Source: Anaerolineae bacterium (GTDB taxonomy: Bacteria; Chloroflexota; Anaerolineae; 4572-78). Taken from it: a DNA stretch of 55,899 nucleotides. Numbering within the stretch: the stretch's first letter is position 1; each line of letters starts with the position of its first letter. The position numbers were made by a program, and so were the translations under genes. Below the pieces are notes generated by a model. It ran no database searches and was not told the origin of the DNA. It worked only from the letters and a program-made list of their open reading frames with translations. Positions 292 to 45,447 of the stretch are shown piece after piece. Location: the NCBI GenBank assembly GCA_029932075.1, contig JAOZQT010000013.1, positions 1 to 55,899 of the forward strand, read 5' to 3'.

Positions 292-334
292 ACCAAATTT
301 TTTGTAATTATTCACTCCCTCTCTTGTCAGTAGA

Positions 335-382
335 CCCCCACCCCTAACCCCTCTCCCTGTGGGGGAGGGGTTAGGGGTGGGG
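335..382. repeat. GC-rich palindromic element (family C), copy C1, ~48 bp, imperfect inverted repeat
   Basis: Sequence is CCCCACCCCTAACCCCTCTCCC-TGT-GGGGGAGGGGTTAGGGGTGGGG, with 22-bp arms. It lies directly 3' of the upstream gene. It has G-quadruplex potential (GGGGG/GGGG/GGGG/GGGG tracts, TTAGGG-like). Related copies are at 9722, 25565, 31331, 35983 and 41001. Confidence 0.6.
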
Positions 383-577
383 ATGAACGCTTACGAGATG
401 GTTTAAAAACTTTTCTTGTTTTAGTTTAAATCAAGCTATTTATTAGCGAGCGGGTTCTTAGTCAGTTTCACCTATGACGGCGGCAGACGATGCCAGCTGG
501 TACAAACCCGTATAAAGAACAAGTGGTTACATTTTTTGAAACGGCTTTTATACAGAAGACAAGCATAATACAACTGC

Positions 578-1701: not shown

Positions 1702-4068
1702 ATGAATATTCTAAATCAATCGTCGAAATTTGATTTTTTGGATAATCTCAATATCGGTCGCAAGTTAGGACTTGCATTCAGTTTACTCATCATGTTATCG
1801 ATTATTTTTGGTGTTATGCTGTTTGTCATGGAAAATCTAGTAAAAACCATGTTCGAGGAAGTCCATAATGCCGACAAAGTAGCAAGTCTAGCACGTCAGA
1901 TAGAAGTAGAATTATTAGAGATGCGCCGCAATGAGAAAAACTTTTTGCTTCGTTATTCGGGTCAAAGTTTTGAGGGGGCTTATGGAAATTACGTTTTACC
2001 TAACCAACAACACTTTCAAACTTTGCTTGACTTGTTGACTGAAATACGCTCTATCATCCCCGCAGAAACAGAACGTGAAGTACGTTATGCTTCATTCTTA
2101 GATAAATTGGAAACAGCCACTCATGACTATCAAACTGTCTTTAATAATTTAGTTGAAAATATCCGCATTCGCGGTGACCAAAATTATGGTTTGACAGGTG
2201 ATGTGCTAGAAATGCTAGATACATTGGATAAAGAAATTGATGAAACTAATGAGTCAGATATAAAAATCACCAGTTCTAATTTACGAAAAGCATATCTATC
2301 ATATTTACATTTTGGCTTTCAATCAACGGGATACAATTATACAGAGCAACCTGTCCAAAAACATATTGATAATTTTCGAGAAGGTACAAAGCAACTCCAA
2401 ACTCTCATTAAATCACATAATAATTTATCTGCATCGAAACGGGAAAACTTGTCAATCATAACAAAAGAAATACAAAGCATGTTTGAACAATTATTAATGC
2501 TAGATAATGAAATCATCGAGCATGAAAAGCAATTAGCGATGAATGCTCGTTCTATAACCACGTTAGCAGGACGAATTATATCGAATGAAGAGGAACGTCA
2601 AACGGAAACTTTTGCTGAATTTATCACTTTACAAAATAGATACGTCATAGCAGGAATCGTTTTATTTATAACCACAATTTTATCGAGTGTAATCCTAGCT
2701 GTTATTTTCACCCGTAGTATTGCCATGCCCATTACCCATCTGACCGCAATCGCCACCCAAATTGCCCAAGCCCCCACTTTAGATGCATGGACGGGAAAAT
2801 TTGACCTTACACGTCAAGATGAAATCGGTATGTTAGCAAAAGACTTTAATTACATGACCATTCGATTGCAAACATTAATTGCTGACTTACAAGAGCGTGA
2901 ACAGAAATACCGTACTATTTTTGAAGAATCAAAAGATGTTCTTTTTGTTACGACAGCAGAAGGTCAGCTTATTGAAGTCAATCCCGCATGTAAAGAAATT
3001 TTTGGTTATACCATAGAAGAAGCAAAACTCTTAAATGTTGTTTCGTTTTATGCTTTTCCTGAAGACCGTCAGCGTTTCCGAAACGCTGTTGAATCTGAAG
3101 GGTTTGTGAAAAACCTTAATCTCAAAATGCGACGACGAGATGATAAAATTATTGATTGTTTAGTGAGTGCCACTTTGCATTATGACCCGTCGGGTAATTT
3201 TATGGGTTATCAAGGCATAATTCATGACATGACCGCACAGAAACATGTTGAAACTGAACGGCTAAAATTAACTGCAATTCGGCGAGAACTTTCGATTGCT
3301 AAAAATATACAGCATAACCTTTTACCCCCAAATAAACCAAATTGGCATGGGGTTGAAGTAGTTTGTTTTACCCAATCGGCACAGGAAATAGGCGGAGATT
3401 TGTATGCTTATCATGCCTTCCCGCCAACACTCGACCCTATGACAGGTGAAGTAATCGGAGGCAGATATGGCATTGCTGTCGGCGATGTGTCAGGAAAAGG
3501 AATATCGGCAGCTTTACTCATGGCATTGACTATGAGTACGTTTAAATCAACGGTACAACAATTTTTGGAACCGCCTGACCTGTTAGCTCAGATGGATAAA
3601 ACACTTATGACGTATACTAAAAAAAGTAGGCAAAACTGTGCTTTTGTGTATGTAGAATTTGATATAGACCTGACAGGTATTAGGCGAGGCACTATGGTCA
3701 ATGCAGGTTGTTCCATGCCCTTAATTCGACGGCATGATGGCACCGTTGATGAAATTGAAATTGGAGGCATGCCGCTTGGGGTTGGCTTGGGGAGCCAGTC
3801 AGGTTACATGTCAACCGAAGTCGAATTGCAACGTGATGACATGGTGATTTTGATGAGTGATGGTCTGCCCGAAGCCATGAATGAACATAACGAGATGTTT
3901 GGTTTTGAACGTTTGATGTATGCAGTAAAGTCATTCTCAAATCAAGACCTGAAAGGTTTTCAAAACATTTCAGGTCTCATGTTAGAACATATCAAAGATA
4001 AAGTCATGGCATTTATTGGCGATGCCGAACCGCATGACGATTTGACTATTGTTGTGGTGCAGGTATAG
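1702..4068 (+). CDS. Membrane sensor with HAMP and PAS domains fused to a PP2C-type (SpoIIE/RsbU-like) serine phosphatase
   Basis: N-terminal TM segments, PAS-like region (VNPACKEIFGYTIEEAK), and a PP2C/SpoIIE signature (GGDLYAY...VGDVSGKGISAALLMA...SDGLPEA). Confidence 0.75.
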   Translation: MNILNQSSKFDFLDNLNIGRKLGLAFSLLIMLSIIFGVMLFVMENLVKTMFEEVHNADKVASLARQIEVELLEMRRNEKNFLLRYSGQSFEGAYGNYVLPNQQHFQTLLDLLTEIRSIIPAETEREVRYASFLDKLETATHDYQTVFNNLVENIRIRGDQNYGLTGDVLEMLDTLDKEIDETNESDIKITSSNLRKAYLSYLHFGFQSTGYNYTEQPVQKHIDNFREGTKQLQTLIKSHNNLSASKRENLSIITKEIQSMFEQLLMLDNEIIEHEKQLAMNARSITTLAGRIISNEEERQTETFAEFITLQNRYVIAGIVLFITTILSSVILAVIFTRSIAMPITHLTAIATQIAQAPTLDAWTGKFDLTRQDEIGMLAKDFNYMTIRLQTLIADLQEREQKYRTIFEESKDVLFVTTAEGQLIEVNPACKEIFGYTIEEAKLLNVVSFYAFPEDRQRFRNAVESEGFVKNLNLKMRRRDDKIIDCLVSATLHYDPSGNFMGYQGIIHDMTAQKHVETERLKLTAIRRELSIAKNIQHNLLPPNKPNWHGVEVVCFTQSAQEIGGDLYAYHAFPPTLDPMTGEVIGGRYGIAVGDVSGKGISAALLMALTMSTFKSTVQQFLEPPDLLAQMDKTLMTYTKKSRQNCAFVYVEFDIDLTGIRRGTMVNAGCSMPLIRRHDGTVDEIEIGGMPLGVGLGSQSGYMSTEVELQRDDMVILMSDGLPEAMNEHNEMFGFERLMYAVKSFSNQDLKGFQNISGLMLEHIKDKVMAFIGDAEPHDDLTIVVVQV

Positions 4069-4076
4069 ATGTTCAT

Positions 4077-4495: not shown

Positions 4496-7270
4496 ATGAA
4501 AACAAATTCTAAAATACTAATCCCCATCACATTTATAGCATTTGCATTACGTGTATATGCCCTTGATTTTCAGCCGTTATGGGGTGATGAAGGCTGGAGT
4601 TTTTACTTCGCCTGCATGCCAATTGTTGATATGATACACTTAACGGCGTTAGATATTCACCCACCATTATATTATCTCATATTGCATGGCTGGTTTATGA
4701 TTGCAGGCATCACTTCTGAAATGGGGCGTTTCGTGTCAGTCATTTGCGGTACATTGCTCATCCCAATTGTATATCAACTTGCTCATGTAATTGAATCTAA
4801 CCACACCATTTCAAAGGTGAGTGGAGTGGGCGGGGTGCTGGCGGCATTCATAACTGCAATTAATCCTATGGCGATTTATTACAGCCAAGAAGTACGCATG
4901 TACGGTTTAGTAACGCTATTGGGAACGATGAGCATGCTTGCTTTCGTACATTTTTTAAGAGGCAATCAAAAAGCTAAATGGGCATACATCATCGTCACCA
5001 CATTAAGTTTATACACAATGTACTATGCTATTTTTATCGTGATTGCTCAAGGGATTTACGTACTGATAAGAGCGACAAAAAATTGGAGAGTCAAAGCTTT
5101 TATGATTAAACCTGACAGGTTTTTGGAAACCTGTCAGGTTTTGAACATTACCTCGTTTGTGACTATCGGCTTACTCTATTCCCCATGGGTGATTTATGCT
5201 ACAGATAAACTCATGGCATACATCGGGCAGAAAGTTAATATCGAAGGCTATACCTCGCTTACCTTAGCTGAATTTTTAACACGTTATGCGTTAGCCTTTT
5301 CGGTCGGGCATCCTTTGAAAATAGAAATTGAACTTCTTACGCCAATCACCATTTTATTTATCATGATTGCTATGCTGGGGACATGGAATCGCCTGAAATG
5401 TTCAACAAATAATTTTAAGGGACTTGTCTTACTTTATTTGTTTATTCCACTTTTATTAGGCTGGCTGATTAATTTAGTAAGCCCATTTACTCCACGCTTT
5501 TTCGAACGGACTTTGCTTATTGCCGCACCTGCTTGGTGGTTACTTGTCGCGGCTGGTTTGGCAAAAGTAAAAATCCAATTTTTCCCGAAAATCGAATTTC
5601 TACAGACGAGCATTATCGGACTTTTTCTAGTCGGCATTAACATGTACAGCTTGTTCGATTTTTACCAAATTCCTCGTTATCCCGATGAAGATTATCGTCC
5701 ACTTTTAGCTAAAGTTTCAGCCATCGCTACTCACAACGATATTATCATGGCAAGCTATCAATGGCAACTTGGTTATTATCATGCCTATCTAGCTAAACCC
5801 CATCCTCAGTTTTATATCGTGCCTGCATGGGGAAATACATGGGGAAATGACTCCGCTATCATGCGACATGATTTGACAAAGCTACTTCAACATGATGTTT
5901 GGTTTCCTGCTCATCAAACCTTAGGTCGAACATGGGAAACAAATGCAGAAAACATCATGACAGATATTGGCTTTCTGACATTGCTGACATGGTACGATGA
6001 AAATACTAAATTGACACTTTTTGCTAAGCAAACTACCATCACTCCAAGCCAAACAATTTATTTTAAAAACGACCTTAAATTAAATGTCTCTTTAGCCAAT
6101 GAAACCAATTTTGAAGCAGGGCGAGGTATCATACCTGTTGGGATTGCATGGGATGGGTTAGATAAAAATCAATTATCAAGTTATTTAGTTACCTTAAAAC
6201 TAAGCGACTCACATGGTGAAATTTGGGCAAAACGTGATGTTCTATCGCCGCAAACTGCTCGATTTACTGAACAACATGGTCTGTTGGTTGAAGCAGGTAC
6301 TGTTCCTGGTAGCTATGAAGTGCATTTAAGCGTGAGTCATGCTTCGCATAAAAAACCATTGGACATGCTAAGCAACGATGGTCAACCACAAGGCGTAGAA
6401 GCAAAACTGATGACAATAAATGTCTATCCCGCACAAACTCCCATCGGCAAAGCGGCTTTACCTGTTCAAACAATGACAAACATCCCATTTGATGACCATG
6501 TGAATTTGGTCGGCTACACAGTTGGACAAACAGAAATTCAAGCTGGAGAAACCCTGCCCGTCAATCTTTTTTGGCAAAGCATGAGCGATGCTTTACCTGA
6601 ATTAACCATGTTTGTGCAGTTGCAGGATGAGCATGGTAAAGCGGTCGCCTTAACCGAACATTCTCCGATATACCCGACTACGGCATGGCAATCGAAAACC
6701 CTTTTGAGAGACCTGCACCATGTCAAAATTCCTGCCGACTTGCCCCCAAAAACATACACCTTAGCCATTGGTGTACTTTATCCCAACAAAACCCGTTTGC
6801 AAACGCCGTTCAATAATCAATTTGTGCTAGGCAAAATTAAGCTGACAACTCGCTCCCATGAATTTGAAGCCCCTAGTTTCACTTATCCCGTTGAGGCAAA
6901 TTTTGACAACAAGGCTATTCTCATAGGCTATGACATATCCTCAACTCAATTGGAAATCGGAGATACTTTAACGCTTACCATGCATTGGCAGAGTAATGCC
7001 ATGTTTGACCGCAATTGGACAATCTTTGCTCATGTCGTTGATGAGGATGGCAAAATTATCGCACAGCAAGACCAGCTTCCACCATTTCCGACGACCACTT
7101 GGATTCCCAATGAATACATCAGTGATACTCGCTACATCATGCTAAAGCCTGACAAATTGCCAGGAGGCAACCACACAATTCATGTGGGGCTATACGATGC
7201 GGATACATTTTTGCGTTTACCTCTTGTAAATGGTGATGATACGTTTATTTTAAGTATGCCATCAAAATAA
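4496..7270 (+). CDS. GT-C fold glycosyltransferase (family 39/83, PMT/ArnT-like) with a large C-terminal extracytoplasmic domain
   Basis: Polytopic N-terminal ~450 aa carrying the first-loop motif YALDFQPLWGDEGWSFYFA typical of polyprenyl-phosphate-sugar dependent GT39/ArnT-type enzymes, followed by a ~450-aa soluble domain. Confidence 0.55.
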   Translation: MKTNSKILIPITFIAFALRVYALDFQPLWGDEGWSFYFACMPIVDMIHLTALDIHPPLYYLILHGWFMIAGITSEMGRFVSVICGTLLIPIVYQLAHVIESNHTISKVSGVGGVLAAFITAINPMAIYYSQEVRMYGLVTLLGTMSMLAFVHFLRGNQKAKWAYIIVTTLSLYTMYYAIFIVIAQGIYVLIRATKNWRVKAFMIKPDRFLETCQVLNITSFVTIGLLYSPWVIYATDKLMAYIGQKVNIEGYTSLTLAEFLTRYALAFSVGHPLKIEIELLTPITILFIMIAMLGTWNRLKCSTNNFKGLVLLYLFIPLLLGWLINLVSPFTPRFFERTLLIAAPAWWLLVAAGLAKVKIQFFPKIEFLQTSIIGLFLVGINMYSLFDFYQIPRYPDEDYRPLLAKVSAIATHNDIIMASYQWQLGYYHAYLAKPHPQFYIVPAWGNTWGNDSAIMRHDLTKLLQHDVWFPAHQTLGRTWETNAENIMTDIGFLTLLTWYDENTKLTLFAKQTTITPSQTIYFKNDLKLNVSLANETNFEAGRGIIPVGIAWDGLDKNQLSSYLVTLKLSDSHGEIWAKRDVLSPQTARFTEQHGLLVEAGTVPGSYEVHLSVSHASHKKPLDMLSNDGQPQGVEAKLMTINVYPAQTPIGKAALPVQTMTNIPFDDHVNLVGYTVGQTEIQAGETLPVNLFWQSMSDALPELTMFVQLQDEHGKAVALTEHSPIYPTTAWQSKTLLRDLHHVKIPADLPPKTYTLAIGVLYPNKTRLQTPFNNQFVLGKIKLTTRSHEFEAPSFTYPVEANFDNKAILIGYDISSTQLEIGDTLTLTMHWQSNAMFDRNWTIFAHVVDEDGKIIAQQDQLPPFPTTTWIPNEYISDTRYIMLKPDKLPGGNHTIHVGLYDADTFLRLPLVNGDDTFILSMPSK

Positions 7271-7322: not shown

Positions 7323-7358
7323 GAATTTATCTATTTTTTGAATTGAGAGGTGGTAATT

Positions 7359-7604
7359 ATGCAAAACGTACAGACATTAAAAACAAATGTTATCAATACT
7401 TTAGATATGCTCCCATTTGAAAATTTACGACTATTAAGTGAATTTGCTTCTTTTCTACGATTGAAAATAGAACAGAGTACAATGCAACAAAAACCAGTTA
7501 TTAAACTAGGTGGTTTATGGGCAAATACACTCCCTATAACAGAAGACGATATTACAGAAGCACGTCAAGAAATGTGGGGTAATTTGGGAGAAATTGAAAT
7601 ATGA
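7359..7604 (+). CDS. Antitoxin of a VapBC-type toxin-antitoxin pair
   Basis: Small acidic protein immediately upstream of the PIN gene, overlapping it by 4 bp (ATGA). RBS GAGAGGTGG is 5 nt before ATG 7359. The track start at 7350 is a GTG inside the RBS. Confidence 0.6.
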   Translation: MQNVQTLKTNVINTLDMLPFENLRLLSEFASFLRLKIEQSTMQQKPVIKLGGLWANTLPITEDDITEARQEMWGNLGEIEI

Positions 7605-8008
7605 GTTTATCTTATGTAATCGACACACATGCTTTTATATGGCATCTTCAAAGTTCTTCAAGGTTGTCATCCACTGTCAAACAAATTTTTGCAGAGACAG
7701 ATGAGGGTAAAATAATTGTTATTGTACCAACTATTGTTCTGGTTGAAATGATTTATTTAGCAGAAAAAAGCCGAATACCACAAAATATTGTCAATATAGC
7801 ATTACAACTGTTGGGAAAAGAAAGTGCCAATTATCAACTTGCCCCATTGAATTTTGAAGTTGTGGAAAGCCTAAAACAAATACCACGTTCTGTTGTTCCT
7901 GATATGCCTGATCGTATTATTTCAGCAACAGCCTTAGCATTGAAACTTCCTCTTTTGAGTAAAGACTCAGCTATATTGCGTTTATTGAATATTAAAGTAA
8001 TTTGGTAA
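7601..8008 (+). CDS. vapC: PIN-domain ribonuclease toxin VapC
   Basis: N-terminal VIDTHAFIW (PIN first acidic residue). 135 aa. Translationally coupled to the upstream antitoxin gene. Confidence 0.75.
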   Translation: MSLSYVIDTHAFIWHLQSSSRLSSTVKQIFAETDEGKIIVIVPTIVLVEMIYLAEKSRIPQNIVNIALQLLGKESANYQLAPLNFEVVESLKQIPRSVVPDMPDRIISATALALKLPLLSKDSAILRLLNIKVIW

Positions 8009-8095
8009 ACCCAAATAACAAGGCGTTGCTGGCTAGGATAATTCACTCCACAAAATAATTGCCTAATTAAACAAGCAGGTATATAATTGGCATTG

Positions 8096-11000
8096 ATGTC
8101 AAACTATATTCATAAGCACGATGTTATTTCAATTATTATCCTATTTATCTTGCCGTTGATTTTCTTTTGGCAAGTCACACTTGGCACAAAAACCCTTCTC
8201 CCCGCCGATAATCTTTTCACTTTTGAGCCGTACCATTCGTTTGTAGATGAATTTGGTATTGAGCGGGTTCAAAATCATCTCCTGTCCGATTTAGTTTTAG
8301 AAAATTATGTTTGGAAACGGTTTATTCGAGAATCGATTGCCAAACGGGAATTACCTCTTTGGAATCCATACATCTTTGCTGGACAACCTTTTTTAGCAAA
8401 TGGGCAACATTCTGCCTTATATCCCCTGACGATATTATTCTACATCTTGCCATTAGAAAATGCTTACGGCTGGTTTACTGTTATCCAATTGTGGTTAGCT
8501 GGAGCATTTACTTATTTGTTTTTGCGGGTGCTGAAAGCAAATCGCTGGGGAGCATTACTAGCTGGCATTGTATACCAATTGAGTGGCTGGTTTATTTTCC
8601 GAATTGTTTTTACCATGATGGTAGCGGGTGCAGTGTGGTTGCCCTTCATCCTGGCAATTATCGAAATTATTATTCGCAAACAAGAGGAAAAAGGAGAACA
8701 GTCATACTCTCCAATTCCTTATGTTACTGTCGGTGCTATTGCAGTTGGGATGCAAGTTTTAGCGGGGCATGTCGAAATCACTTACTATATTTTGTTGGTG
8801 AGTGCCTTTTATGCCGCATGCCGTTTATTTTTCATGTGGCGAAAGCAAGTAGGGGTTTATGGTCATAACACCATACGTTTGATGGCATGGTTATGGGTTA
8901 TGATGGTCATAGGTTTAGGATTGGGTGCCATTCAATTAATCCCTTTTTATGAAATCGGTACATCAAATTTTCGTGAAGGGACAACTTCATTGCAACAAGT
9001 TCAAGAATGGGCATTACCCATGCGGCGGATAATTAGTTTTGTCATGCCAAATTTTTTCGGTAGTTCTGCCCATACAGAATACTTTGATTTGGTGAGCAAA
9101 ACATGGCAACCATTTGGACTTAATGCACATGGCGAAATCAATCCGCTTTGCAATTACTGTGCTACATGGGATGTTAAAACGGCAGTTGAGGCAGGAGCAT
9201 ATTTGGGGATTTTGCCCTTGATTTTAGCAGGATTGGCGATTTATACTGGAGTACGGAAATCGCGTTTTCCTGTTTTTATCTTCGGGACACTAGCAATTTT
9301 ATCATTACTTTTTGCATTTGGCACACCGCTTTATGCCCTTTTGTTTTATGGTTTGCCAGGCTGGAATCAACTTCATTCGCCCTTTCGTTGGATTTATCCA
9401 TTTACCTTGAGCATTGCAGTTTTAGCAGGTATTGGTGTAACCAATTTGTGTGCATCCAAAAGGCATGATGCAACAACTTCAAGGTATGTAGGCGGGTTAC
9501 TTTTTTGGAGCGGATTGATTGGCATGCTTGCCATGTTCATTACATTTATATTTCCTACCACACTTATTAACATCGGGCAGTTTGTTGTTGACCATTCGGG
9601 ATTGGCTCAAAATGCTTTTGCTGATGGTCGACAGTTTGCCAGTTATCAATGGCGTAATCTGCTTCATTTTTTCTCGATGGTCATGGCAAGTGGGGCAATT
9701 TTACGTATTAGCCTTGTAAATCCCTCCCCTTCAAAGAGGAGGGGCTGGGGTGGGGTCTGGAAACCGTTGATGTTGCTTATCGTCGTCATGGATTTGATGA
9801 TGTCGAGCATGGGTTTTAATCCTGCCGTTGACCCTACATTGCTCGATTTTACGCCGCCTGCTATCGAATGGCTACAAGCTCAACAAAAAACCGATTCTCT
9901 ATTTCGTATCACGAGCTTCGACACATCGACGGGAAGAGGAAATAAAATTCTCAATGCCAATACAGCCATGCTAAATCAGCTATTTGATGTGCGTGGTTAT
10001 GATAGCATCATTTCCAAACAGTACCTCGAATTTATGTTGCTCATCCAAGAAAATGGTGATTACCTTTATAATCGAATTGCCCCGATTTATCAACCTGGTT
10101 ATCATGCACTCGATTCTGCATTGCTGGATTTGCTAGGGGTGCGATATGTTTTGACTACAGAGACAATTCCAAATGAAAGCTATCGTTTGGTGTATGATGA
10201 GGAAATTAAGATTTATGAAAATATTGATGTCATGCCGCGGGCGTTTGTGGTGACTCAATCGGAGCATGACATCAAAGACATGGCGTTTGCTTTGCGGAGT
10301 CTGAATCCACGTGAGAAGGTTTTGATTCAGGATTTAGGGGGCAGGGGTGATGGTCAAACAAAAAATGTTTTCGAAAACCTTTCTTGTTTTAACAATAAAA
10401 AGGTTTCTATTACGGAGTATACGAATAATGAGGTGATTATTTCGGCTGAAGTGTTTGAGCCGAGTTGGTTGGTTTTAGCTGACAGTTATTTTCCTGGTTG
10501 GAAGGCATACATCAGCATGACCAATTCTGAAGAAGAAACCGAAATCACCATTCATCGAGCAAACGGCAATTTTCGAGCCGTTCATCTTCCCGCTGGGGCA
10601 TGGCAAATTCGTTTTATTTACACCCCGATGAGTTTTAAGTTAGGAATATATGTCAGTTTCCTAGCGGGCATGATACTGATGTTTTTGTTCGGCTATTGGT
10701 CATGGGGTAAACTTTATCGCGAGAGTGAAACGGATAGCCCGATAAAACGGATTGCCAAAAATAGTTTGGTACCAATGGTCATGGCTTTGACGAATCGGCT
10801 GATTGACTTTGCTTTTGCGATGGTGATGTTGCGTATTTTGCAACCCGAAGGGGCAGGAAAATTTGCTTTTGCAGTGGCGTTCATCAGCATGTCAGATATT
10901 ATCACCCGCTATGGTTTAGGTACATTAGTTACGCGGGAGGTTGCCGCTAATCGAACTGAAACTAATAGTTATTTGTCGAATGTAACTTTATTACGGATGT

Positions 11001-12172
11001 ATTTGTGGGTGTTTGCCCTACCATTCATAGGAACGATTTTAGTATTGTATGTCATGTTCGGCGATTTGAGTTTTGATGTGGTGATTACTATTGCTATCTT
11101 TTCAATAGGCATGCTCCTTAGCAATTTTGCAGATGGCTTGACCGCCATTTTTTATGCCCATGAAAAAGCGGAATATCCAGCCGCCATCGCCTCGATTACG
11201 ACCTTAACTCGTGTTGGTGTTGGTTTGTTGGTGCTGTTACTTGGCTGGGGAATTATCGGTTTAGCAGGTGCTTCATTACTGGCAAATTTGGTATCATTCA
11301 TGGTTTTGAGTTATATTTTGATGGTCAAAATTTATCGCCCTTCATTCGATAATGACATATCTCTGCAAAAAGAAATGATGCGAGAAAGTTTGCCTTTAAT
11401 GCTAAATCATCTATTGGCAACCATATTTTTTCGGATTGATGTGTTTATTCTGGCACCGACATGGGGCGACGAATCGGTCGGTTATTACAACGCCGCCTAC
11501 AAATATATTGATGGCATTAACATCATTCCACAATATTTCACCCTAGCCATTTTCCCCTTGATGAGCAAATTCGCCTCCGATTCCCGCGACTCGTTGATAC
11601 GAGCATACAAATTAAGTTTACGTCTGTTGATTATGCTTGCCTTGCCCATCACCATTGGCACGCCATTTGTGGCTCATGAGCTAATTGGATTTTTGGCAGG
11701 TGAGAAATTCATTCCCGATTCGGTGATTGTTTTGCAGATATTAATTTTCTTTTTGCCCTTCAGTTTCATCAATCAAGTAACGCAATATGTCTTAATCGCC
11801 ATCAATCAACAACGCTTTTTAACACGTGCATTTGTAATAGGGGTCGCCTTCAACCTGATAACAAATATTATTTTTATCCCCAAATTTGGCTACCGAGCCG
11901 CCGCAGTCACCACAATTTTATCCGAATGGGTTTTGTTGATTCCATTTTACATGCTGGTCAAAAAACATTTATGCACTCTGCCATGGCTTGACATTGTATG
12001 GCGACCAATTGTGGCAGGTTTGGTGATGGGAGGGATATTGTGGTTTATGGGAGATATAGGATTTGTAATGACGGTAGTGATTGGCGGCAGTGTTTACTTG
12101 CTAGTGCTGACATTGGTGGGCGGTTTGAATCAAGAGGACATGGCGGTGGTATGGCGGCAATTCCCAAAATAA
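8096..12172 (+). CDS. Fusion protein: YfhO-family GT-C membrane glycosyltransferase (N-terminal ~850 aa) plus Wzx/MurJ-type (MOP superfamily) polysaccharide flippase domain (C-terminal ~480 aa)
   Basis: The N-terminal part has the YfhO-like architecture of many TM helices followed by a beta-rich extracytoplasmic domain. The C-terminal part from ~aa 880 (LVPMVMALTNRLIDFAFAMVMLRIL...) looks like 'polysaccharide biosynthesis protein' flippases with 12-14 TM helices. First ATG is at 8096 (TTG at 8087 is an alternative start). No strong RBS. Confidence 0.55.
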   Translation: MSNYIHKHDVISIIILFILPLIFFWQVTLGTKTLLPADNLFTFEPYHSFVDEFGIERVQNHLLSDLVLENYVWKRFIRESIAKRELPLWNPYIFAGQPFLANGQHSALYPLTILFYILPLENAYGWFTVIQLWLAGAFTYLFLRVLKANRWGALLAGIVYQLSGWFIFRIVFTMMVAGAVWLPFILAIIEIIIRKQEEKGEQSYSPIPYVTVGAIAVGMQVLAGHVEITYYILLVSAFYAACRLFFMWRKQVGVYGHNTIRLMAWLWVMMVIGLGLGAIQLIPFYEIGTSNFREGTTSLQQVQEWALPMRRIISFVMPNFFGSSAHTEYFDLVSKTWQPFGLNAHGEINPLCNYCATWDVKTAVEAGAYLGILPLILAGLAIYTGVRKSRFPVFIFGTLAILSLLFAFGTPLYALLFYGLPGWNQLHSPFRWIYPFTLSIAVLAGIGVTNLCASKRHDATTSRYVGGLLFWSGLIGMLAMFITFIFPTTLINIGQFVVDHSGLAQNAFADGRQFASYQWRNLLHFFSMVMASGAILRISLVNPSPSKRRGWGGVWKPLMLLIVVMDLMMSSMGFNPAVDPTLLDFTPPAIEWLQAQQKTDSLFRITSFDTSTGRGNKILNANTAMLNQLFDVRGYDSIISKQYLEFMLLIQENGDYLYNRIAPIYQPGYHALDSALLDLLGVRYVLTTETIPNESYRLVYDEEIKIYENIDVMPRAFVVTQSEHDIKDMAFALRSLNPREKVLIQDLGGRGDGQTKNVFENLSCFNNKKVSITEYTNNEVIISAEVFEPSWLVLADSYFPGWKAYISMTNSEEETEITIHRANGNFRAVHLPAGAWQIRFIYTPMSFKLGIYVSFLAGMILMFLFGYWSWGKLYRESETDSPIKRIAKNSLVPMVMALTNRLIDFAFAMVMLRILQPEGAGKFAFAVAFISMSDIITRYGLGTLVTREVAANRTETNSYLSNVTLLRMYLWVFALPFIGTILVLYVMFGDLSFDVVITIAIFSIGMLLSNFADGLTAIFYAHEKAEYPAAIASITTLTRVGVGLLVLLLGWGIIGLAGASLLANLVSFMVLSYILMVKIYRPSFDNDISLQKEMMRESLPLMLNHLLATIFFRIDVFILAPTWGDESVGYYNAAYKYIDGINIIPQYFTLAIFPLMSKFASDSRDSLIRAYKLSLRLLIMLALPITIGTPFVAHELIGFLAGEKFIPDSVIVLQILIFFLPFSFINQVTQYVLIAINQQRFLTRAFVIGVAFNLITNIIFIPKFGYRAAAVTTILSEWVLLIPFYMLVKKHLCTLPWLDIVWRPIVAGLVMGGILWFMGDIGFVMTVVIGGSVYLLVLTLVGGLNQEDMAVVWRQFPK
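9722..9755. repeat. Family-C GC-rich element (copy C2) embedded in-frame inside the YfhO/flippase CDS
   Basis: CCCTCCCCTTCAAAGAGGAGGGGCTGGGGTGGGG resembles copy C5 (CCTCCCTTTGAAGGGAGGGGTTGGGAATGGG). It encodes NPSPSKRRGWGGVW in a predicted loop right after a TM helix. Confidence 0.5.
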
Positions 12173-12232
12173 CAACTATTGGACTGTTAAATCTCGCATG
12201 GAACATCAAAGTTTGCTTTGACCATATCTATA

Positions 12233-14752: not shown

Positions 14753-15005
14753 GTTCCTCAATTAAAACTAAGCAAATTTATGCTCAATATACCACAGGGT
14801 TGCGAAAAATGACAATTGATGGCACATTGTTTGATTAATTGATTTTTCTTGTTTCCCAACCCAAGACTGTTTTGGGTTGAGAAAACGGTTATCAATTTGG
14901 CAAAACAGAACGAAAAGATTATAATACCATGCAGGACAGGCATCTTGCCTGCTTTGACTATTGCTCACAGTCAAAATTACCATGATACATGATGAGTACA
15001 CAAAC

Positions 15006-16601
15006 ATGCGAAAATTTTTTTCTTATGGACCGTTAAGTAAAACCCAACATTATTATGTGCCCCGCACCCAATTGATTGAATTTGGGATAAATCAATTAGT
15101 CGGGCATCCTCATGAGGAAGGTGGACATTACATCACCGTTTGGGCTCCACGTCAACGGGGTAAGTCATGGATAATGCAACAGGTATTATGGCAGTTGCAG
15201 GAAGATGAGCGGTTTGATGTTGTAAAGTTGAGCCTGCAACATTTAACTGATTTAGCTGATATTAATACGGTCATGAATGTTATTGCCGAAGAAATGACTC
15301 AATTTTTAGGATACGAGACTATTCGTGTCAACGACCCACGTGATTTTGCTCGTTTGTTTAGCAAAAGTGTTTTACAAAAACCATTGATATTGATGCTTGA
15401 TGAGTTTGATTCTTTGCACCCTGAAGCTATAGGGCATGTGGTGCGTGCCTTTCGTAATATTTATAATTTGAGAAGAGACTCATCACTTCCTACTGAACAA
15501 AAACCATATCTATTGCATAGTGTAGCATTGATTGGGGTGCGGGCGGTTTTGGGAGTAGATACCATGAGCGGTTCACCTTTCAATGTGCAACGGAGCATGC
15601 ATATTCCAAATTTGACCTACGAAGAAGTGGATTCTATGTTTCATTGGTATGAGCAAGAGAGTGGACAAACTGTCGAGCAAGATGTGATTGACCGCTTGTT
15701 TCATGTCTTGCAAGGGCAACCAGGCTTGACGGGTTGGTTCGGCGAATTGTTGACCGAAACGTATAACAAACATCATCCGACCATTGCTATGAACGACTTT
15801 GACTTAGTGTACAAAACGGCAGTTCAAGCATTGCCCAATGCCAACATCTTGAATATTGTCAGTAAGGCAAAACAAGACCCGTACCGTGAAACGGTGTTGA
15901 GTCTTTTTGAAACAGATGAGAAAGTTCCTTTTAAGTATGACAAACCGAATATAGCTTATCTCTATTTGAATGGAGTTATTGATGAAGAGGTAGATAAAGA
16001 AAATGAGCGACATGTTAAGTTTCCATGTCAATTTGTCCAAGAACGGTTATTCAATTATTTTTCATCTATGCTTTATCAAAGCATGAATCGTTTGTATGAC
16101 CCGTTTATGGATTTAGTGCCATACATCACTGAAACTACCTTGAATATCAAGGGCATATTGCAATTGTATGAGCAGTATGTGCATAAAAATGATGATTGGC
16201 TTTTCCGCGAAGCTCCACGTCGTAAAACTGATTTTCGTATCATGGAAGCAACCTATCATTTCAATTTGTTCATGTACTTGAGCAAGTTCATACGAAAGCG
16301 TGGTGGGCAGGTGATTCCTGAATTTCCAACGGGCAATGGCAAGGTTGATTTGATTATTCAACATGGTGGCAAAATCCATGCCATTGAAGTAAAGAGTTTC
16401 AGTGATGCCTACGAATTGAAAAAAGGAATCGGTCAAGCGGCTGAATACGGTAAGCAACTTGGTTTAACTAAAATTGTGCTGGCAACGTTTGTAGAAAATA
16501 TCCCATCTGATTTTCGGCAAAAGCATGAGGTTATTGAAACGGATGAGGAAACAGGCGTAACTGTGGAGGTTGTTTTTGTGAATGTGATTCAACCGCGATA
16601 G
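15006..16601 (+). CDS. AAA-ATPase-like domain protein with a C-terminal PD-(D/E)XK nuclease-like domain
   Basis: N-terminal RQRGKSW motif resembling the 'predicted AAA-ATPase' family (RPRRFGKS). C-terminal GNGKVDLIIQHGGKIHAIEVKSF resembles the PDDEXK_9-type motif. First ATG is at 15006; in-frame alternatives are TTG 14961 and ATG 14982. Confidence 0.6.
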   Translation: MRKFFSYGPLSKTQHYYVPRTQLIEFGINQLVGHPHEEGGHYITVWAPRQRGKSWIMQQVLWQLQEDERFDVVKLSLQHLTDLADINTVMNVIAEEMTQFLGYETIRVNDPRDFARLFSKSVLQKPLILMLDEFDSLHPEAIGHVVRAFRNIYNLRRDSSLPTEQKPYLLHSVALIGVRAVLGVDTMSGSPFNVQRSMHIPNLTYEEVDSMFHWYEQESGQTVEQDVIDRLFHVLQGQPGLTGWFGELLTETYNKHHPTIAMNDFDLVYKTAVQALPNANILNIVSKAKQDPYRETVLSLFETDEKVPFKYDKPNIAYLYLNGVIDEEVDKENERHVKFPCQFVQERLFNYFSSMLYQSMNRLYDPFMDLVPYITETTLNIKGILQLYEQYVHKNDDWLFREAPRRKTDFRIMEATYHFNLFMYLSKFIRKRGGQVIPEFPTGNGKVDLIIQHGGKIHAIEVKSFSDAYELKKGIGQAAEYGKQLGLTKIVLATFVENIPSDFRQKHEVIETDEETGVTVEVVFVNVIQPR

Positions 16602-16603
16602 TA

Positions 16604-16848
16604 GACCCCACCCCTAGGGCTGTTCAATGCTAAATAAGATATTGGATTTCGTACCTCAATCTTATCCATGGGGTATTGTTTTTAACAGAATATGTAGAGA
16701 TTTATGGTATAAATCCTACACGATGATAAGACATGTGTCCCATATTCCTACCATGTTCTACCTGAAAAAATAGCATTGAACAGCTCTGAATAGTAAGGGC
16801 GTACGCCCGTACGCCCTTACAACTGGCATTGAACAGCCCTGGTAGGGT
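16604..16848. repeat. Repeat-dense intergenic region of nested small palindromic/dispersed elements (families B and C fragments)
   Basis: GACCCCACCCCTAGGGCTGTTCAATGCTAAAT at 16604-16635. A perfect 12+4+12 palindrome GTAAGGGCGTAC-GCCC-GTACGCCCTTAC at 16793-16820 is flanked by 12-bp direct repeats GCATTGAACAGC (16773-16784 and 16826-16837). The B motif TTAGCATTRAACAGCCCT recurs at 25550 and 45524. Confidence 0.55.
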
Positions 16849-20004: not shown

Positions 20005-20016
20005 AAGGTAATAGTC

Positions 20017-20049
20017 AAACAAGAAAGGTTTTTAAAACCTTTCTTATTT
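20017..20049. repeat. Family-D AT-rich palindromic element, copy D3
   Basis: ACAAGAAAGGTTTTTAAAACCTTTCTTAT has 13-bp arms. Related copies are at 22866-22899, 39470-39502, 395-425 (half) and 10365-10392 (half, inside a CDS). Confidence 0.55.
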
Positions 20050-20079
20050 TAACCATAATAGGTTCTAGTTAGACATACC

Positions 20080-21210
20080 ATGAAAATATTACATATCTAC
20101 AAAGATTACTACCCCATCAAAGGTGGAATTGAAAACATGCTAAAGTGGGTGGCAGAGGCTCAAGCTGAACTGGGGCATGATGTCACCGTGTTAGTTGCAA
20201 GCCTAAATCGTCAAGAACAGATTGACATGCAACAAGGTGTGCGAGTCCATAAAGTTCCCCGTTTGGCAACTGTTGCCTCCACCCCAATTACACCTACATT
20301 ACCATTTGCAATTCGTCGCTATAAGCCTGACATTGCCCATGTGCATAGCCCTTATCCGCCCGGTGAATTGTTCAATTATTTATTTGGCAGGGCAAAATTT
20401 TCGGTGATGACTTATCATTCTGATGTTGTTCGGCAACAAACTCTTTTGAAATTTTATAAGCCATTGTTCAAAAGGGTGCTTAATCGGATTGATGTTATCA
20501 TGCCTACCAGTGCCAACTATATCGAAAGTTCTTCGTTCATTCGCTCTCATAAGCATAAATGTCGGGTTGTGCCATTGGGCATTGATTTGTGTCGATTCGA
20601 TACGCCGCCTTCAGCATTGGCACAAACGCTTAAGGAAATACATGGCTCGCCGTTGGTGTTGTTTGTGGGGCGTTTGCGTTACTATAAAGGAATCGATACC
20701 TTAATTGATGCTATGTCGCATGTCAACAAAGGAAAGGCATTGATTGTTGGTGACGGACCCTTGCGTGCTGAATTAGAGGCACATGTTAATCGTCTTAATT
20801 TAAGTGGTCATGTTCATTTTGCGGGAGATGTGTCTAATGACGATTTGCCTGCTTATTTTCAGGCGGCAGATTGTTTTGTGTTGCCCTCCAATTCACGGGC
20901 GGAAGCCTTTGGCATTGTTTTGCTTGAGGCGATGGCATCAGGTTTGCCATGTATCAGTACTGAATTGGAAACAGGAACTTCATGGGTAGTGCAGGATGGG
21001 ATTACGGGCTTTGTTGTTCCTCCACAAAATTCATCGGAACTTGCTCAAGCAATTAACACCATGCTTGGTGACAATGTCCTTCGTCGAAAAATGGCTCAGG
21101 CAAGTTTAAAACGAGTGCATGCTAATTTTTCAAAAGAAAAAATGGTGAATAATATTATGCAAATTTACGAAGAATTACTGAAAGGAGTTTATTATGCGAA
21201 AAAAAATTAA
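20080..21210 (+). CDS. Glycosyltransferase family 4 (GT-B, 'group 1' glycosyltransferase)
   Basis: N-terminal MKILHIYKDYYPIKGGIENM, and a C-terminal GT1/GT4 core with the E-x7-E-like region (EAFGIVLLEAMASGLPCIST). Confidence 0.85.
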   Translation: MKILHIYKDYYPIKGGIENMLKWVAEAQAELGHDVTVLVASLNRQEQIDMQQGVRVHKVPRLATVASTPITPTLPFAIRRYKPDIAHVHSPYPPGELFNYLFGRAKFSVMTYHSDVVRQQTLLKFYKPLFKRVLNRIDVIMPTSANYIESSSFIRSHKHKCRVVPLGIDLCRFDTPPSALAQTLKEIHGSPLVLFVGRLRYYKGIDTLIDAMSHVNKGKALIVGDGPLRAELEAHVNRLNLSGHVHFAGDVSNDDLPAYFQAADCFVLPSNSRAEAFGIVLLEAMASGLPCISTELETGTSWVVQDGITGFVVPPQNSSELAQAINTMLGDNVLRRKMAQASLKRVHANFSKEKMVNNIMQIYEELLKGVYYAKKN

Positions 21211-21232
21211 CGATAATACAGGAGCAAGTCAA

Positions 21233-22865: not shown

Positions 22866-22899
22866 AGACAAGAAAGGTTTTTAAAAACCTGTGTTGTCT
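22866..22899. repeat. Family-D palindromic element, copy D4, between the GMC stop and the ALDH RBS
   Basis: AGACAAGAAAGGTTTTTAAAAACCTGTGTTGTCT. Confidence 0.5.
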
Positions 22900-45413: not shown

Positions 45414-45447
45414 ACCCCTACCATGCTATTTTGTGACAAGATAAATT

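What the first reader, a model, noticed from the sequence alone, without database searches (positions are those of the whole stretch)
9722..10392. Dispersed palindromic repeat copies inserted in-frame inside a coding sequence
A family-C GC-rich element (CCCTCCCCTTCAAAGAGGAGGGGCTGGGGTGGGG; compare the intergenic copy at 35983-36017) lies within the YfhO/flippase ORF. It is translated as NPSPSKRRGWGGVW at a TM-helix/loop boundary without breaking the frame.

About 650 bp downstream, a half-copy of the AT-rich family-D palindrome (GAAAACCTTTCTTGTTTTAAC, 10365-10392) is also inside the same ORF.

In-frame insertion of REP/MITE-like palindromes into genes is known in a few lineages (for example Rickettsia RPEs) and creates novel peptide segments.
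Basis: seen in the sequence. Interest (0 to 1): 0.55.

Follow-up and report, generated by a model that had tools for sequence, protein, structure and literature searches.

The report
In-frame palindromic repeats in a membrane-protein gene
Two short palindromic DNA repeats that are scattered around this Anaerolineae genome sit in-frame inside a large cell-envelope gene and encode floppy protein loops; this is a known kind of event, but the same loop holds different repeats in many related bacteria.

Summary
The sequence at 9722-9755 is a GC-rich C-run/G-run hairpin element, 71% GC in a 40% GC genome. It lies in-frame in a 1361-aa YfhO(GT-C)-flippase fusion gene and reads NPSPSKRRGWGGVW. Related copies lie between genes at 330-383, 35983-36018 and 16601-16618.

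The "half-copy" of family D is really a full but decayed unit of about 64 nt (10345-10409, palindrome 10356-10389). It aligns with the intergenic copy at 20006-20068.

In an AlphaFold model, the two peptides are the loop between the last two TM helices and the only internal stretch with pLDDT below 50.

Orthologs do not show a clean 14-aa indel. The ancestral loop (SRCPIYLPRRLGGxxV) has the same 16-aa length, so the element replaced it. Among 176 orthologs, at least 41 carry repeat-derived peptides in this loop: heptamer-repeat palindromes, GC-rich hairpins or octamer repeats. Proteins 91-96% identical elsewhere carry different elements there.

Two neighbouring genes (a SpoIIE phosphatase and a PMT_2 glycosyltransferase) also hold in-frame palindromes, one as a clean +7-aa insertion.

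Best reading: REP-like selfish palindromes tolerated in permissive loops. This is a new member of a known kind (Rickettsia RPEs, intragenic REPs).

The parts
8087..12172 (+). Host gene: a fusion of a YfhO-type GT-C glycosyltransferase (N-terminal, about aa 1-880) and a Polysacc_synt/MOP flippase (C-terminal). It is 1361 aa from the TTG at 8087; database proteins start at the ATG at 8096 (1358 aa).
   Evidence: ORF list. Pfam hits PF09586 YfhO, PF01943 and PF13440. Full-length orthologs are widespread in Anaerolineae and Caldilineae. AlphaFold model with pLDDT 83.8 and pTM 0.88. Foldseek finds ArnT, AftD, AftA and AglB, which are GT-C folds. The protein is identical or near-identical in 4 independent assemblies.
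9722..9758 (+). In-frame GC-rich family-C element. It is a three-quarter copy: inner hairpin CCCTCCCC/GGAGGGG plus the 3' outer arm CTGGGGTGGGGTCT. It encodes PSPSKRRGWGGV, and the final T is the first base of the conserved Trp558 codon. The 5' outer arm is absent.
   Evidence: It shares the 12-mer GGGGTGGGGTCT with the copy at 16601-16618 on the opposite strand. RNA fold is -23.1 kcal/mol with z -0.6. In the model it is the coil at 544-557 between helices 514-543 and 558-573.
10345..10409 (+). In-frame AT-rich family-D element. It is a full unit of about 64 nt with its palindrome core at 10356-10389. It is decayed and encodes about GDGQTKNVFENLSCFNNKKVSI.
   Evidence: Alignment to 20006-20068. 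Palindrome scan. No stable fold remains (-8.9 kcal/mol, z +0.2). It coincides with the only internal stretch of pLDDT below 50, residues 752-769, between strands 744-748 and 772-778.
330..383 (+). Intergenic full copy of family C. It has a GTAG tag followed by a nested 21-bp-stem palindrome: CCCCACCCCTAACCCCTCTCCC TGT GGGGGAGGGGTTAGGGGTGGGG.
   Evidence: RNA fold is -52.6 kcal/mol with z -6.4.
35983..36018 (+). Intergenic family-C copy: inner hairpin plus the 3' arm, with a degenerate 5' arm.
16601..16618 (+). GTAG-tagged outer-arm fragment of family C (GTAGACCCCACCCCTAGG). Its first base is the last base of the stop codon of ORF 14961..16601.
20006..20068 (+). Intergenic family-D reference copy, with its palindrome at 20017-20049. 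It is the closest relative of the in-ORF copy.
39469..39501 (+). Family-D perfect palindrome AGACAAGAAAGGTTTTAAAAACCTTTCTTGTCT. It most likely lies between two minus-strand genes.
   Evidence: Pfam on the flanking ORFs.
22866..22899 (+). Family-D palindrome between ORF 21194..22855 and ORF 22917..24521.
3945..3977 (+). Another in-frame family-D-type palindrome (AGACCTGAAAGGTTTTCAAAACATTTCAGGTCT). It lies inside the SpoIIE/PP2C domain of ORF 1702..4068 and reads NQDLKGFQNISGLM.
   Evidence: It is a clean +7-aa insertion against about 58 of 60 homologs. Fold z is -4.4.
5108..5141 (+). Another in-frame perfect palindrome (AAACCTGACAGGTTTTTGGAAACCTGTCAGGTTT). It lies in the PMT_2 (GT-C) membrane-protein ORF 4496..7270 and reads IKPDRFLETCQV, between hydrophobic segments.
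   Evidence: Fold z is -5.8.

Best explanation
Both segments are copies of short REP-like palindromic repeat families that are scattered through this genome and through Anaerolineae in general. They landed in the coding sequence of a YfhO(GT-C)-flippase fusion gene. They survive because they are in-frame, free of stop codons and located in structurally permissive loops.

The GC-rich family-C copy now encodes the short, positively charged loop between the last two TM helices of the GT-C module. That loop is inferred to be cytoplasmic, because the next helix leads into the extracytoplasmic C-terminal domain. The AT-rich family-D copy encodes a disordered loop in that C-terminal beta-domain.

Each copy overwrote the ancestral loop sequence rather than simply lengthening it. 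Neither seems to add a function. They look like tolerated passengers, and both have lost part of their palindrome.

The TM loop is a recurrent landing and turnover site. Across orthologs it is occupied by unrelated palindromic families, and the occupant is exchanged between otherwise nearly identical proteins.

Shown here: repeat homology, frame, loop location, foreign composition, and recurrent occupancy with turnover. Inferred: neutrality, and the way the elements move. The most likely route is a hairpin- or ssDNA-dependent one of the REP/RAYT type, or recombination or template switching between palindromes.
For: Repeat homology and foreign composition:
- Exact and near matches to intergenic copies far exceed chance.
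- GC is 0.71 against 0.41, GC3 is 0.75 against 0.41, and rare AGG and TCC codons are used.

Intact host gene:
- The ORF is full length and aligns end to end with orthologs.
- It is the same in 4 assemblies at 99.92-99.96% DNA identity, with no SNP in either element.

Loop location:
- The model has a coil at 544-557 between helices 514-543 and 558-573.
- Residues 752-769 are the only internal segment with pLDDT below 50.
- The fold is GT-C.

Ortholog comparison:
- The ancestral 16-aa loop SRCPIYLPRRLGGxxV is found in the deep clades.
- Of 176 non-redundant orthologs, 28 have heptamer-repeat palindromes, 9 have GC-rich hairpins and 4 have octamer repeats in this loop. This needs at least 26 state changes on the NJ tree.
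- The loop DNA folds as strong palindromes, for example -53 kcal/mol in L012 and -50.7 in L010; L009, L025, L031, L056 and L077 are further cases.
- Pairs 91-96% identical outside the loop carry different families: P0072/L010, P0076/L012, P0064/P0083 and P0094/L009.
- The flanks are sharply conserved around the exchanged segment.

The same families elsewhere:
- The GC-rich family is in-frame at other loops of the same gene in L006, L028 and L042.
- Family D is in-frame at about aa 391 (L003) and about aa 729 (L009, L012, L013, L025, L081-L083).
- Two more in-frame palindromes lie in neighbouring window genes, one a clean +7-aa indel.

Family properties:
- Family D keeps its hairpin through compensatory changes. 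95% of cells pair, 8 of 15 pairs change on both sides, and 0 of 500 shuffles reach the observed covariation.
- Strong palindromes are about 6-8 times denser outside long ORFs than inside them: 2.26 against 0.29-0.40 per 10 kb. That is what purifying selection against genic copies would produce.
Against: - No before-and-after pair exists for this genome. The closest ortholog is only about 65-67% identical, and all sampled strains carry both elements. The insertion event is therefore inferred, not seen.
- Net loop length is unchanged (16 aa against 16 aa; 25 aa against 25 aa in P0002). A simple insertion does not explain this; it needs an accompanying deletion or a replacement mechanism.
- Only 3-4 family-C copies can be seen in 56 kb, and the genome-wide copy number is unknown.
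- No transposase or RAYT gene is in the window.
- No target-site duplication is visible at the one clean indel.
- Pro (CCN) and Gly (GGN) codons are complementary, so P..G-rich loops have some built-in hairpin tendency.
- The NJ tree is approximate.
Confidence: 0.8

Rival explanations
1. Selected nucleic-acid structure. A hairpin, or a G-quadruplex-prone G-run tract, at this point of the mRNA or DNA would be functionally useful. It might pause translation after the TM helices or act in regulation. Any palindrome would then be recruited and kept there, which would explain why so many different ones occupy the same site.
For: - Different palindromes occupy the same 48-nt site in at least 41 of 176 orthologs.
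- The sense strand of the GC-rich copies carries 3-4 G-runs: WIN GGAGGGGCTGGGGTGGGG and L083 GGGAGGGGCTGGGAGAGGG.
- Family D keeps its pairing by covariation.
Against: - About 61 orthologs, including the deep clades, have the plain 16-aa loop with unremarkable folding energies of about -0.2 to -0.3 kcal/mol per nt. A structure is therefore not required.
- The window's own copies fold no better than shuffled sequence (z -0.6 and +0.2), and the D copy has decayed.
- No terminator-like or promoter-like signal exceeds chance in 9500-10600.
- Palindromes occur at similar density in other long ORFs.
Confidence: 0.08
2. Single ancient insertion. A GC-rich element entered this loop once in an ancestor of the window lineage and the P0051 clade. 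The present diversity would then reflect decay and loss rather than repeated independent colonisation.
For: The window and L081-L083 share several features:
- the same orientation;
- the same reading frame;
- the same three-quarter architecture, with inner hairpin, YT, G-run arm and then GTC;
- the same missing 5' outer arm.
Against: - The window is about 66% identical to that clade. Lineages with other loop states, or with the ancestral RCPIY-type loop, branch between them.
- The element boundaries differ by 4 codons on the 5' side and 2 codons on the 3' side.
- Within the P0051 clade, members 89-93% identical to each other alternate between GC-rich and heptamer elements. Turnover is therefore much faster than the depth this history needs.
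- With only 6 orientation-and-frame combinations, and selection for a positively charged loop, convergence is cheap.
Confidence: 0.12
3. Chance or convergent resemblance. A Pro/Gly/Arg-rich loop evolved in place and only looks like the repeat family.
For: - The ancestral loop already encodes P..RR..GG.
- CCN and GGN codons pair with each other.
- The hairpin energy is not better than in shuffles of the same composition.
Against: - The 18-19-nt G-run arm matches the intergenic copies with one substitution and one indel.
- It shares the 12-mer GGGGTGGGGTCT with the copy at 16601-16618.
- Codon choice is strongly atypical for the gene.
- The second element matches an intergenic unit over 64 nt, including non-palindromic flanks.
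Confidence: 0.03
4. Assembly or sequencing artefact at a repeat.
For: The window comes from a metagenome-assembled genome, and repeats can seed chimeric joins.
Against: - The elements are 34-64 nt long and lie inside unique coding sequence.
- Four independent assemblies (ENA, NCBI, JGI, Logan) give the same sequence without indels.
Confidence: 0.01

Closest known systems
Rickettsia palindromic elements (RPEs; Ogata et al. 2000, as summarised in PMC10969869 and PMC3184786)
   Same: They are selfish palindromic repeats found in-frame inside functional protein genes. They add peptide segments at positions compatible with the fold, and several genes in one genome are affected.
   Different: RPEs are about 100-150 bp, restricted to Rickettsia, and encode a conserved peptide per family. 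The elements here are 34-64 nt and lie in Anaerolineae. They replace loop sequence without net lengthening. The same loop is serially occupied by unrelated families.
GTAG/CGTC-tagged REPs, thought to be mobilised by RAYT tyrosine transposases (Di Nocera et al. 2013, PMC3733652; Nunvar et al. 2010, PMC2817692; Ton-Hoang et al. 2012, PMC3333891)
   Same: - They have the same size class of 20-50 nt and are imperfect palindromes.
- They are mostly extragenic and often sit just after a stop codon.
- A GTAG tag is present on both window copies that keep the 5' outer arm.
- GTAG...CTAC palindromes are present in the window (53302-53329) and in ortholog loci.
- Intragenic REPs have been reported, including REPs at about the same site in Xanthomonas recB orthologs.
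   Different: No RAYT gene is seen in the window and the copy number is unknown. The family-C unit is a nested double palindrome made of C-runs and G-runs. Family D is AT-rich with AGAC...GTCT ends rather than a plain GTAG tag. The extent of same-site turnover across a whole class has not, to my knowledge, been described.
In-frame MITE-type repeats (ERIC, pneumococcal BOX/RUP, Coxiella QMITE1, Anabaena MITEs; PMC10969869, PMC5896051)
   Same: They are small non-autonomous repeats that give translational fusions or internal insertions.
   Different: MITEs are 70-300+ bp with terminal inverted repeats and target-site duplications. Neither the size nor a duplication is seen here.
Cyanobacterial STRR heptanucleotide tandem repeats (from my own knowledge of Mazel et al. 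1990; only indirectly supported)
   Same: The ortholog loops carry tandem heptamers such as (TTTACGA)n, (AATTACG)n and (CGTTTCA)n. Because 7 is not a multiple of 3, these give 7-aa periodic peptides such as FTIYDLR and IVNRKSK.
   Different: Here the heptamer arrays are arranged as inverted arms, so they form palindromes. They lie in Chloroflexota and inside a coding loop. The window itself does not carry this type at the site.

Membership tests
REP (repetitive extragenic palindrome), GTAG type | Short (about 20-40 nt) imperfect palindrome able to form a stem-loop | tested here: met
   Family C has a 21-bp stem in the full copy. Family D has a 15-16-bp stem, 95% of cells paired and compensatory changes.
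REP (repetitive extragenic palindrome), GTAG type | GTAG (or CGTC) tetranucleotide at one end | tested here: inconclusive
   GTAGACCCC starts both family-C copies that keep the 5' outer arm, at 330 and 16601. The ORF copy reads CCAGACCCC on the minus strand, where the tag position overlaps the conserved Trp codon. Copies in other genomes lack a clear tag. Only two informative copies exist.
REP (repetitive extragenic palindrome), GTAG type | High copy number per genome (tens to hundreds) | not testable with these tools
   Only 56 kb of this genome is held, plus 1.9 kb from L087. It contains 4 family-C and 6-7 family-D copies. The metagenome scan returned a single 1.8-kb contig.
REP (repetitive extragenic palindrome), GTAG type | Predominantly extragenic location | tested here: met
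   Three of 4 family-C copies in the window are intergenic. Across 78 ortholog loci, strong palindromes occur at 2.26 per 10 kb outside long ORFs against 0.29-0.40 inside them.
REP (repetitive extragenic palindrome), GTAG type | Association with a RAYT (IS200/IS605-like Y1 transposase) gene in the genome | not testable with these tools
   No transposase domain was found in the window ORFs that were scanned. The rest of the genome is not available.
Rickettsia palindromic elements (RPE) | Element of about 100-150 bp encoding a family-specific conserved peptide, in Rickettsia | tested here: not met
   The elements are 34-64 nt and the host is an Anaerolineae bacterium. They work like RPEs but are not members.
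MITE | Terminal inverted repeats flanking a non-palindromic core, a target-site duplication, and a size of 70-300+ bp | tested here: not met
   The size is too small and the whole unit is one hairpin. No direct repeat flanks the clean insertion at 3945-3977 (AATCA | element | CATGT).
YfhO / GT-C glycosyltransferase (host protein, N-terminal module) | Pfam YfhO match and a GT-C fold: a multi-TM N-terminal region plus an extracytoplasmic C-terminal domain | tested here: met
   PF09586 at 3.4e-15, above its cut-off. Foldseek finds ArnT 5ezm (E 8e-5), AftD, AftA and AglB. The model has a TM bundle followed by a beta-rich domain at 600-845.

The most novel reading that the evidence does not exclude
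The TM loop, and 3-4 other loops of this gene family, may not be merely tolerant. They may be self-perpetuating landing pads. Once a palindrome sits there, it would become the preferred target for the next hairpin-seeking element, or for conversion from another palindrome. The site would then undergo serial in-frame replacement faster than 5-10% protein divergence. If so, orthologous loops across Anaerolineae would be a natural record of how REP-like elements choose targets and replace each other inside genes.
Probability: 0.25. Interest if true: 0.6.

Novelty: new member of a known kind. Interest (0 to 1): 0.4.

Why it matters
In-frame survival of selfish palindromes is a known route to new loop sequence in proteins. 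It has been documented for Rickettsia RPEs, some REPs and some MITEs. This case extends it to Anaerolineae (Chloroflexota).

It also offers a rich comparative series. One 16-aa loop between two TM helices has been overwritten by at least three unrelated repeat families in at least 41 of 176 orthologs, with exchanges between proteins 91-96% identical.

That series could be used in three ways:
- to study target choice and turnover of REP-like elements;
- to map insertion-tolerant loops in GT-C enzymes;
- to warn annotators that peptides such as GRGWGRV, FTIYDLR/IVNRKSK and KPDRS in Chloroflexota proteins derive from repeats.

For the window itself, the two elements are most likely neutral passengers.

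Tried and rejected
- **Rfam, gathering thresholds, whole window.** It found only tRNA-Leu and no known RNA family at the elements.
- **Promoter and terminator scan of 9500-10600.** Nothing exceeded chance, so the elements are not an internal terminator.
It was not found; the loop length is the same as the ancestral one.
- **Peptide versus palindrome conservation among strains.** Four assemblies are 99.92-99.96% identical with no SNP in either element, so this was uninformative.
- **Getting more of this genome.** The single metagenome scan, using a genome-specific repeat, returned one 1.8-kb contig from a related organism. A genome-wide census was therefore not possible.
- **Is the YfhO gene as a whole enriched in palindromes over other long ORFs?** It has 0.40 against 0.29 per 10 kb, which is not a meaningful difference. 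The clustering is by site, not by gene.
- **PDB sequence search with the SpoIIE domain.** No hit. The indel was shown with database homologs instead.
- **Transposase or RAYT in the window.** None was found.
- **Literature on in-frame palindromes in Anaerolineae.** None was found in the held library.
- **Conserved mRNA structure at the site.** Orthologs with the ancestral loop do not fold notably.
Full report
**Observation.** The 34-nt string CCCTCCCCTTCAAAGAGGAGGGGCTGGGGTGGGG is at 9722-9755 on the + strand. It lies inside the only long ORF of the region, 8087..12172, and reads NPSPSKRRGWGGVW in that frame. These are residues 545-558 when counted from the TTG at 8087. Database versions of the protein start at the ATG at 8096. 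The genome is about 40% GC, whereas the segment is 71% GC. Only 0.07% of 34-nt windows in the 55.9 kb are as GC-rich. The segment's GC3 is 0.75 against 0.41 for the rest of the ORF. It uses codons that are rare in this gene: AGG is 5% of Arg codons and TCC is 8% of Ser codons.

**Family C.** The window also holds a better reference at 330-383: GTAG followed by the nested palindrome CCCCACCCCTAACCCCTCTCCC-TGT-GGGGGAGGGGTTAGGGGTGGGG. That copy has a 21-bp stem and folds at -52.6 kcal/mol with z -6.4. A GTAG-tagged outer-arm fragment sits at 16601-16618, overlapping the last base of a stop codon. GGAGGGGYTGGG with up to 1 mismatch occurs three times against 0.18 expected. The ORF copy is a three-quarter unit, with the inner hairpin and the 3' outer arm but no 5' outer arm. 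It shares the 12-mer GGGGTGGGGTCT with the copy at 16601 on the opposite strand. Similarity ends inside the conserved Trp558 codon.

**Family D.** The quoted string lies at 10373-10393. It is the right arm of a complete palindrome, AAACAAAAAATGTTTTCGAAAACCTTTCTTGTTT (10356-10389), with a 15-bp stem and 2 mismatches. Similarity to the intergenic copy extends beyond the palindrome on both sides. The stretch 10345-10409 aligns with 20006-20068 at about 81% identity, with local score 39. Other family members score at most 30 and unrelated windows at most 20. The ORF therefore holds a full but decayed unit, not a half-copy. As RNA it no longer folds better than shuffled sequence (z +0.2).

Family D is a widespread Anaerolineae family of the form AGAC-N5-AGGTTT...AAACCT-N5-GTCT. 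I found 23 usable copies in 1.35 Mb of related loci and the window. The middle of the stem covaries (AAGAA/TTCTT, CTGAC/GTCAG, CCTAA/TTAGG and so on). 95% of cells pair, 8 of 15 pairs change on both sides, and 0 of 500 shuffles reach the observed covariation score. The pattern used to collect the copies did not require complementarity in the middle.

**Host protein and structural context.** The ORF fuses a YfhO-type module with a Polysacc_synt/MOP flippase. Full-length orthologs are common in Anaerolineae and Caldilineae. An AlphaFold model of residues 1-880 has pLDDT 83.8 and pTM 0.88. Its best PDB matches are the GT-C enzymes ArnT, AftD, AftA and AglB.

- The family-C peptide is the coil at 544-557 between helices 514-543 and 558-573, the last two TM helices before the C-terminal beta-rich domain. 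Because that domain is extracytoplasmic in GT-C enzymes (established knowledge), I infer that the loop is cytoplasmic. Its positive charge (K, R, R) fits this.
- The family-D peptide coincides with residues 752-769, the only internal stretch with pLDDT below 50. It lies between strands 744-748 and 772-778.

Both elements therefore encode loops between well-predicted structural elements.

**Ortholog comparison at the TM loop.** I aligned 120 database homologs and 80 genomic loci with DNA. The flanks (..GAVLRI and WKPLAV..DL) are conserved and the 16-aa stretch between them is hypervariable. The deep clades and 61 of 176 non-redundant orthologs have a short RCPIY-type loop, typically SRCPIYLPRRLGGxxV. 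The window's SLVNPSPSKRRGWGGV is also 16 aa. There is no clean 14-aa indel, so the element replaced the ancestral loop.

At least 41 orthologs carry recognisably repeat-derived peptides in this loop (which adds one heptamer case to the counts):

- 28 have heptamer-repeat palindromes or arrays. An example is RFTIYDFGLPIVNRKSKIVN, encoded by (TTTACGA)n facing (TCGTAAA)n.
- 9 have GC-rich C-run/G-run hairpins.
- 4 have octamer-repeat elements.

A 147-nt palindrome in L077 and other odd inserts occur as well. At the DNA level these loops are strong palindromes, for example L012 ACCCCCCCCTTCCCCCCCCTTGAAAGGGGGGGGATTGAGGGGGGGGT at -53 kcal/mol. Some loop 12-mers recur elsewhere in the same locus (L002 at 4 sites, L009 at 2, L057 at 2). 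Fitch parsimony on an NJ tree needs at least 26 changes of repeat class.

Proteins that are 91-96% identical outside the loop carry different families: P0072 and L010 (96%), P0076 and L012 (93%), P0064 and P0083 (93%), P0094 and L009 (91%). A DNA alignment shows conserved flanks, CGGATTGTGCGCTGCCCNATCT and GCCTGGAAACCGCT, around the exchanged segment. The window's nearest relatives, at about 65-67% identity, carry heptamer-type loops rather than the GC-rich element.

Orthologs P0051, P0046, P0094, P0055 and P0064 have PSLRGRGWGRV-like peptides in the same loop. I fetched the DNA of three of them. All three carry the same kind of element in the same orientation and frame: CCCTCCC-loop-GGGAGGGG, then YT, then GGGGWGGGG, then TC. 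These genomes are 55-57% GC. So this is not a chance peptide resemblance. These proteins are about 66% identical to the window and sit in another clade. They also keep VRCPIFL before the element and two codons after it, so the position differs from the window by 4 and 2 codons. I read this as independent colonisation of the same loop by a class-wide element family. One ancient event cannot be excluded.

**Other sites and other genes.** Across orthologs, strong palindromes inside this gene cluster at a few variable loops: window residues about 391, 461, 541-558, 729 and 767. The GC-rich family is also in-frame at about 391 (L006 and L028, in opposite orientations) and at about 630 (L042). Family D is in-frame at about 391 in L003 (HSG25). 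It is also in-frame at about 729, reading KPDRS, in L009, L012, L013, L025 and L081-L083.

In the window, two neighbouring genes also hold in-frame palindromes:

- 3945-3977 lies inside the SpoIIE/PP2C domain of ORF 1702..4068. It is a clean +7-aa insertion against about 58 of 60 homologs.
- 5108-5141 lies in a loop of the PMT_2 GT-C protein encoded by ORF 4496..7270.

Both still fold strongly (z -4.4 and -5.8) and so look younger than the two copies in the YfhO gene.

Over 78 ortholog loci, strong palindromes occur at 2.26 per 10 kb outside long ORFs, 0.29 in other long ORFs and 0.40 in this gene. The gene as a whole is not special. The clustering is by loop.

**Mechanism.**

- Shown: the two segments are homologous to dispersed palindromic families, are foreign in composition, are in-frame, sit in loops, and are fixed in all four sampled assemblies. 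The TM loop is repeatedly occupied and exchanged across the family.
- Inferred: the elements are selfish REP-like repeats, and insertions survive only when they are in-frame, stop-free and in permissive loops. The peptides are then neutral passengers that decay.

How the elements move is unknown. The GTAG tag on both informative family-C copies points to a REP/RAYT-type, hairpin-dependent process as described in PMC3733652, PMC2817692 and PMC3333891. So do the GTAG...CTAC palindromes in the window (53302-53329) and in ortholog loci. However, no RAYT gene is in the window, and no target duplication is visible at the clean indel. The unchanged loop length and the same-site exchanges fit replacement better than plain insertion. 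That could be insertion with deletion, conversion between palindromes, or targeting of an existing palindrome. REPs are known targets for insertion sequences (PMC1525189).

**Rivals.**

- A selected mRNA or DNA structure at the site is unlikely. Many orthologs have a plain loop with ordinary folding, and the window's copies fold no better than shuffles.
- Chance resemblance is excluded by the match statistics and codon usage.
- An assembly artefact is excluded by four concordant assemblies.

**Comparison with known systems and novelty.** In-frame small repeats are well documented. Examples are Rickettsia RPEs, ERIC, BOX, QMITE1 and Anabaena MITEs (PMC10969869, PMC3184786, PMC5896051). Intragenic REPs are also documented, including REPs at about the same site of Xanthomonas recB orthologs (PMC3733652). 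The present elements work like RPEs but fail RPE and MITE membership on size and architecture. They fit REPs in size, palindromy and extragenic bias. The tag evidence is partial, and copy number and RAYT association are untested.

I found nothing on this phenomenon in Anaerolineae in the held library. I therefore rate it a new member of a known kind. The added point of interest is the extent of same-site turnover across a bacterial class.

**Limits.**

- Only 56 kb of the genome is available.
- The closest ortholog is about 65-67% identical.
- The tree is NJ on identity-based distances.
- Repeat classes for database proteins without DNA were assigned from peptide signatures.

Noticed in passing
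window 12229-12365 and 50161-50297: A 137-141-nt direct repeat, 96-97% identical. One copy lies just downstream of the YfhO-flippase stop codon. The other lies about 200 nt upstream of tRNA-Leu(TAA) at 50497-50582. It might be a MITE or a small RNA gene. Three of the SNPs between strains fall in the first copy (12285, 12298, 12310).
   Followed up: partly
window 4076-4124, 25443-25491, 45447-45495; partial copies at 1604-1641, 12198-12225, 52608-52635; L084:795-894: A third repeat family: a 50-nt composite of two overlapping palindromes (TGGAGCGTCAAAGCTTGCTTTGACATGAAAAAGCAAGCTTTTTCGCTCCA). It always lies just after genes. One copy was also found on a 39% GC JGI metagenome contig.
   Followed up: partly
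window 3945-3977 (ORF 1702..4068) and 5108-5141 (ORF 4496..7270): Two further in-frame palindromes sit in neighbouring genes, a HAMP-PAS-SpoIIE phosphatase and a PMT_2 glycosyltransferase. The first is a clean +7-aa insertion against about 58 of 60 homologs. An HSG24 homolog (P0131) and P0137 have other, longer insertions at the same point.
   Followed up: yes
ortholog loci, e.g. L009:11801-11893, L025:8921-9019, L006:1882-1938, L004:2833-2889: Tandem heptanucleotide arrays, (TTTACGA)n, (AATTACG)n and (CGTTTCA)n, are arranged as inverted arms. Translated, they give 7-aa periodic peptides (FTIYDLR, IVNRKSK). One phase of the complementary arm would contain TAA, and the in-frame copies carry substitutions that avoid it (e.g. 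TCGAAAA).
   Followed up: partly
L077:11654-11800: A 147-nt near-perfect palindrome (-72 kcal/mol) lies in-frame in the same loop of a fen-metagenome ortholog. It encodes 49 aa (…VIPRSRTWATRNLF…DVTRNDTG…).
   Followed up: no
L009, L012, L013, L025, L081-L083 at window-equivalent residue ~729: A family-D-type palindrome (AGACCTGTCAGGTTTT…AAACCTGACAGGTCT) is in-frame as …KPDRS… in a whole clade of orthologs that are 78-93% identical. An in-frame element can therefore be inherited through speciation.
   Followed up: partly
window 53302-53329 and 16793-16820; L025 at residue ~767; L036:6864-6891; L072:21585-21611: Classical-looking GTAG…CTAC (or GTAA…TTAC) tagged palindromes occur at these places, some of them inside long open frames. 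This suggests that GTAG-type REPs are common in this lineage.
   Followed up: no
window 32250-34733 (+): An 827-aa ORF matches the major-vault-protein shoulder domain (PF11978, E 1.8e-26).
   Followed up: no
window 7350-8008 (+): A small antitoxin-like ORF overlaps a PIN-domain (VapC-like) ORF by 4 nt, immediately upstream of the YfhO-flippase gene. The pair is conserved in the other assemblies of this organism.
   Followed up: no
window 41775-42275, 49099-50133, 53337-55852 (minus-strand ORFs): Several ORFs share imperfect GT-rich direct repeats on the + strand (e.g. GTAAATGTTGGTAATGGGGTTGGTGTT). These may be repetitive secreted or surface proteins. They were not examined.
   Followed up: no
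window 9722-9758 vs 39469-39501: Families C and D may share their termini. Family D has AGAC…GTCT ends, family C starts GT-AGAC-CCC, and the ORF copy ends GGG-GTCT. This could mean that one recognition system serves both families. It rests on few copies.
   Followed up: no
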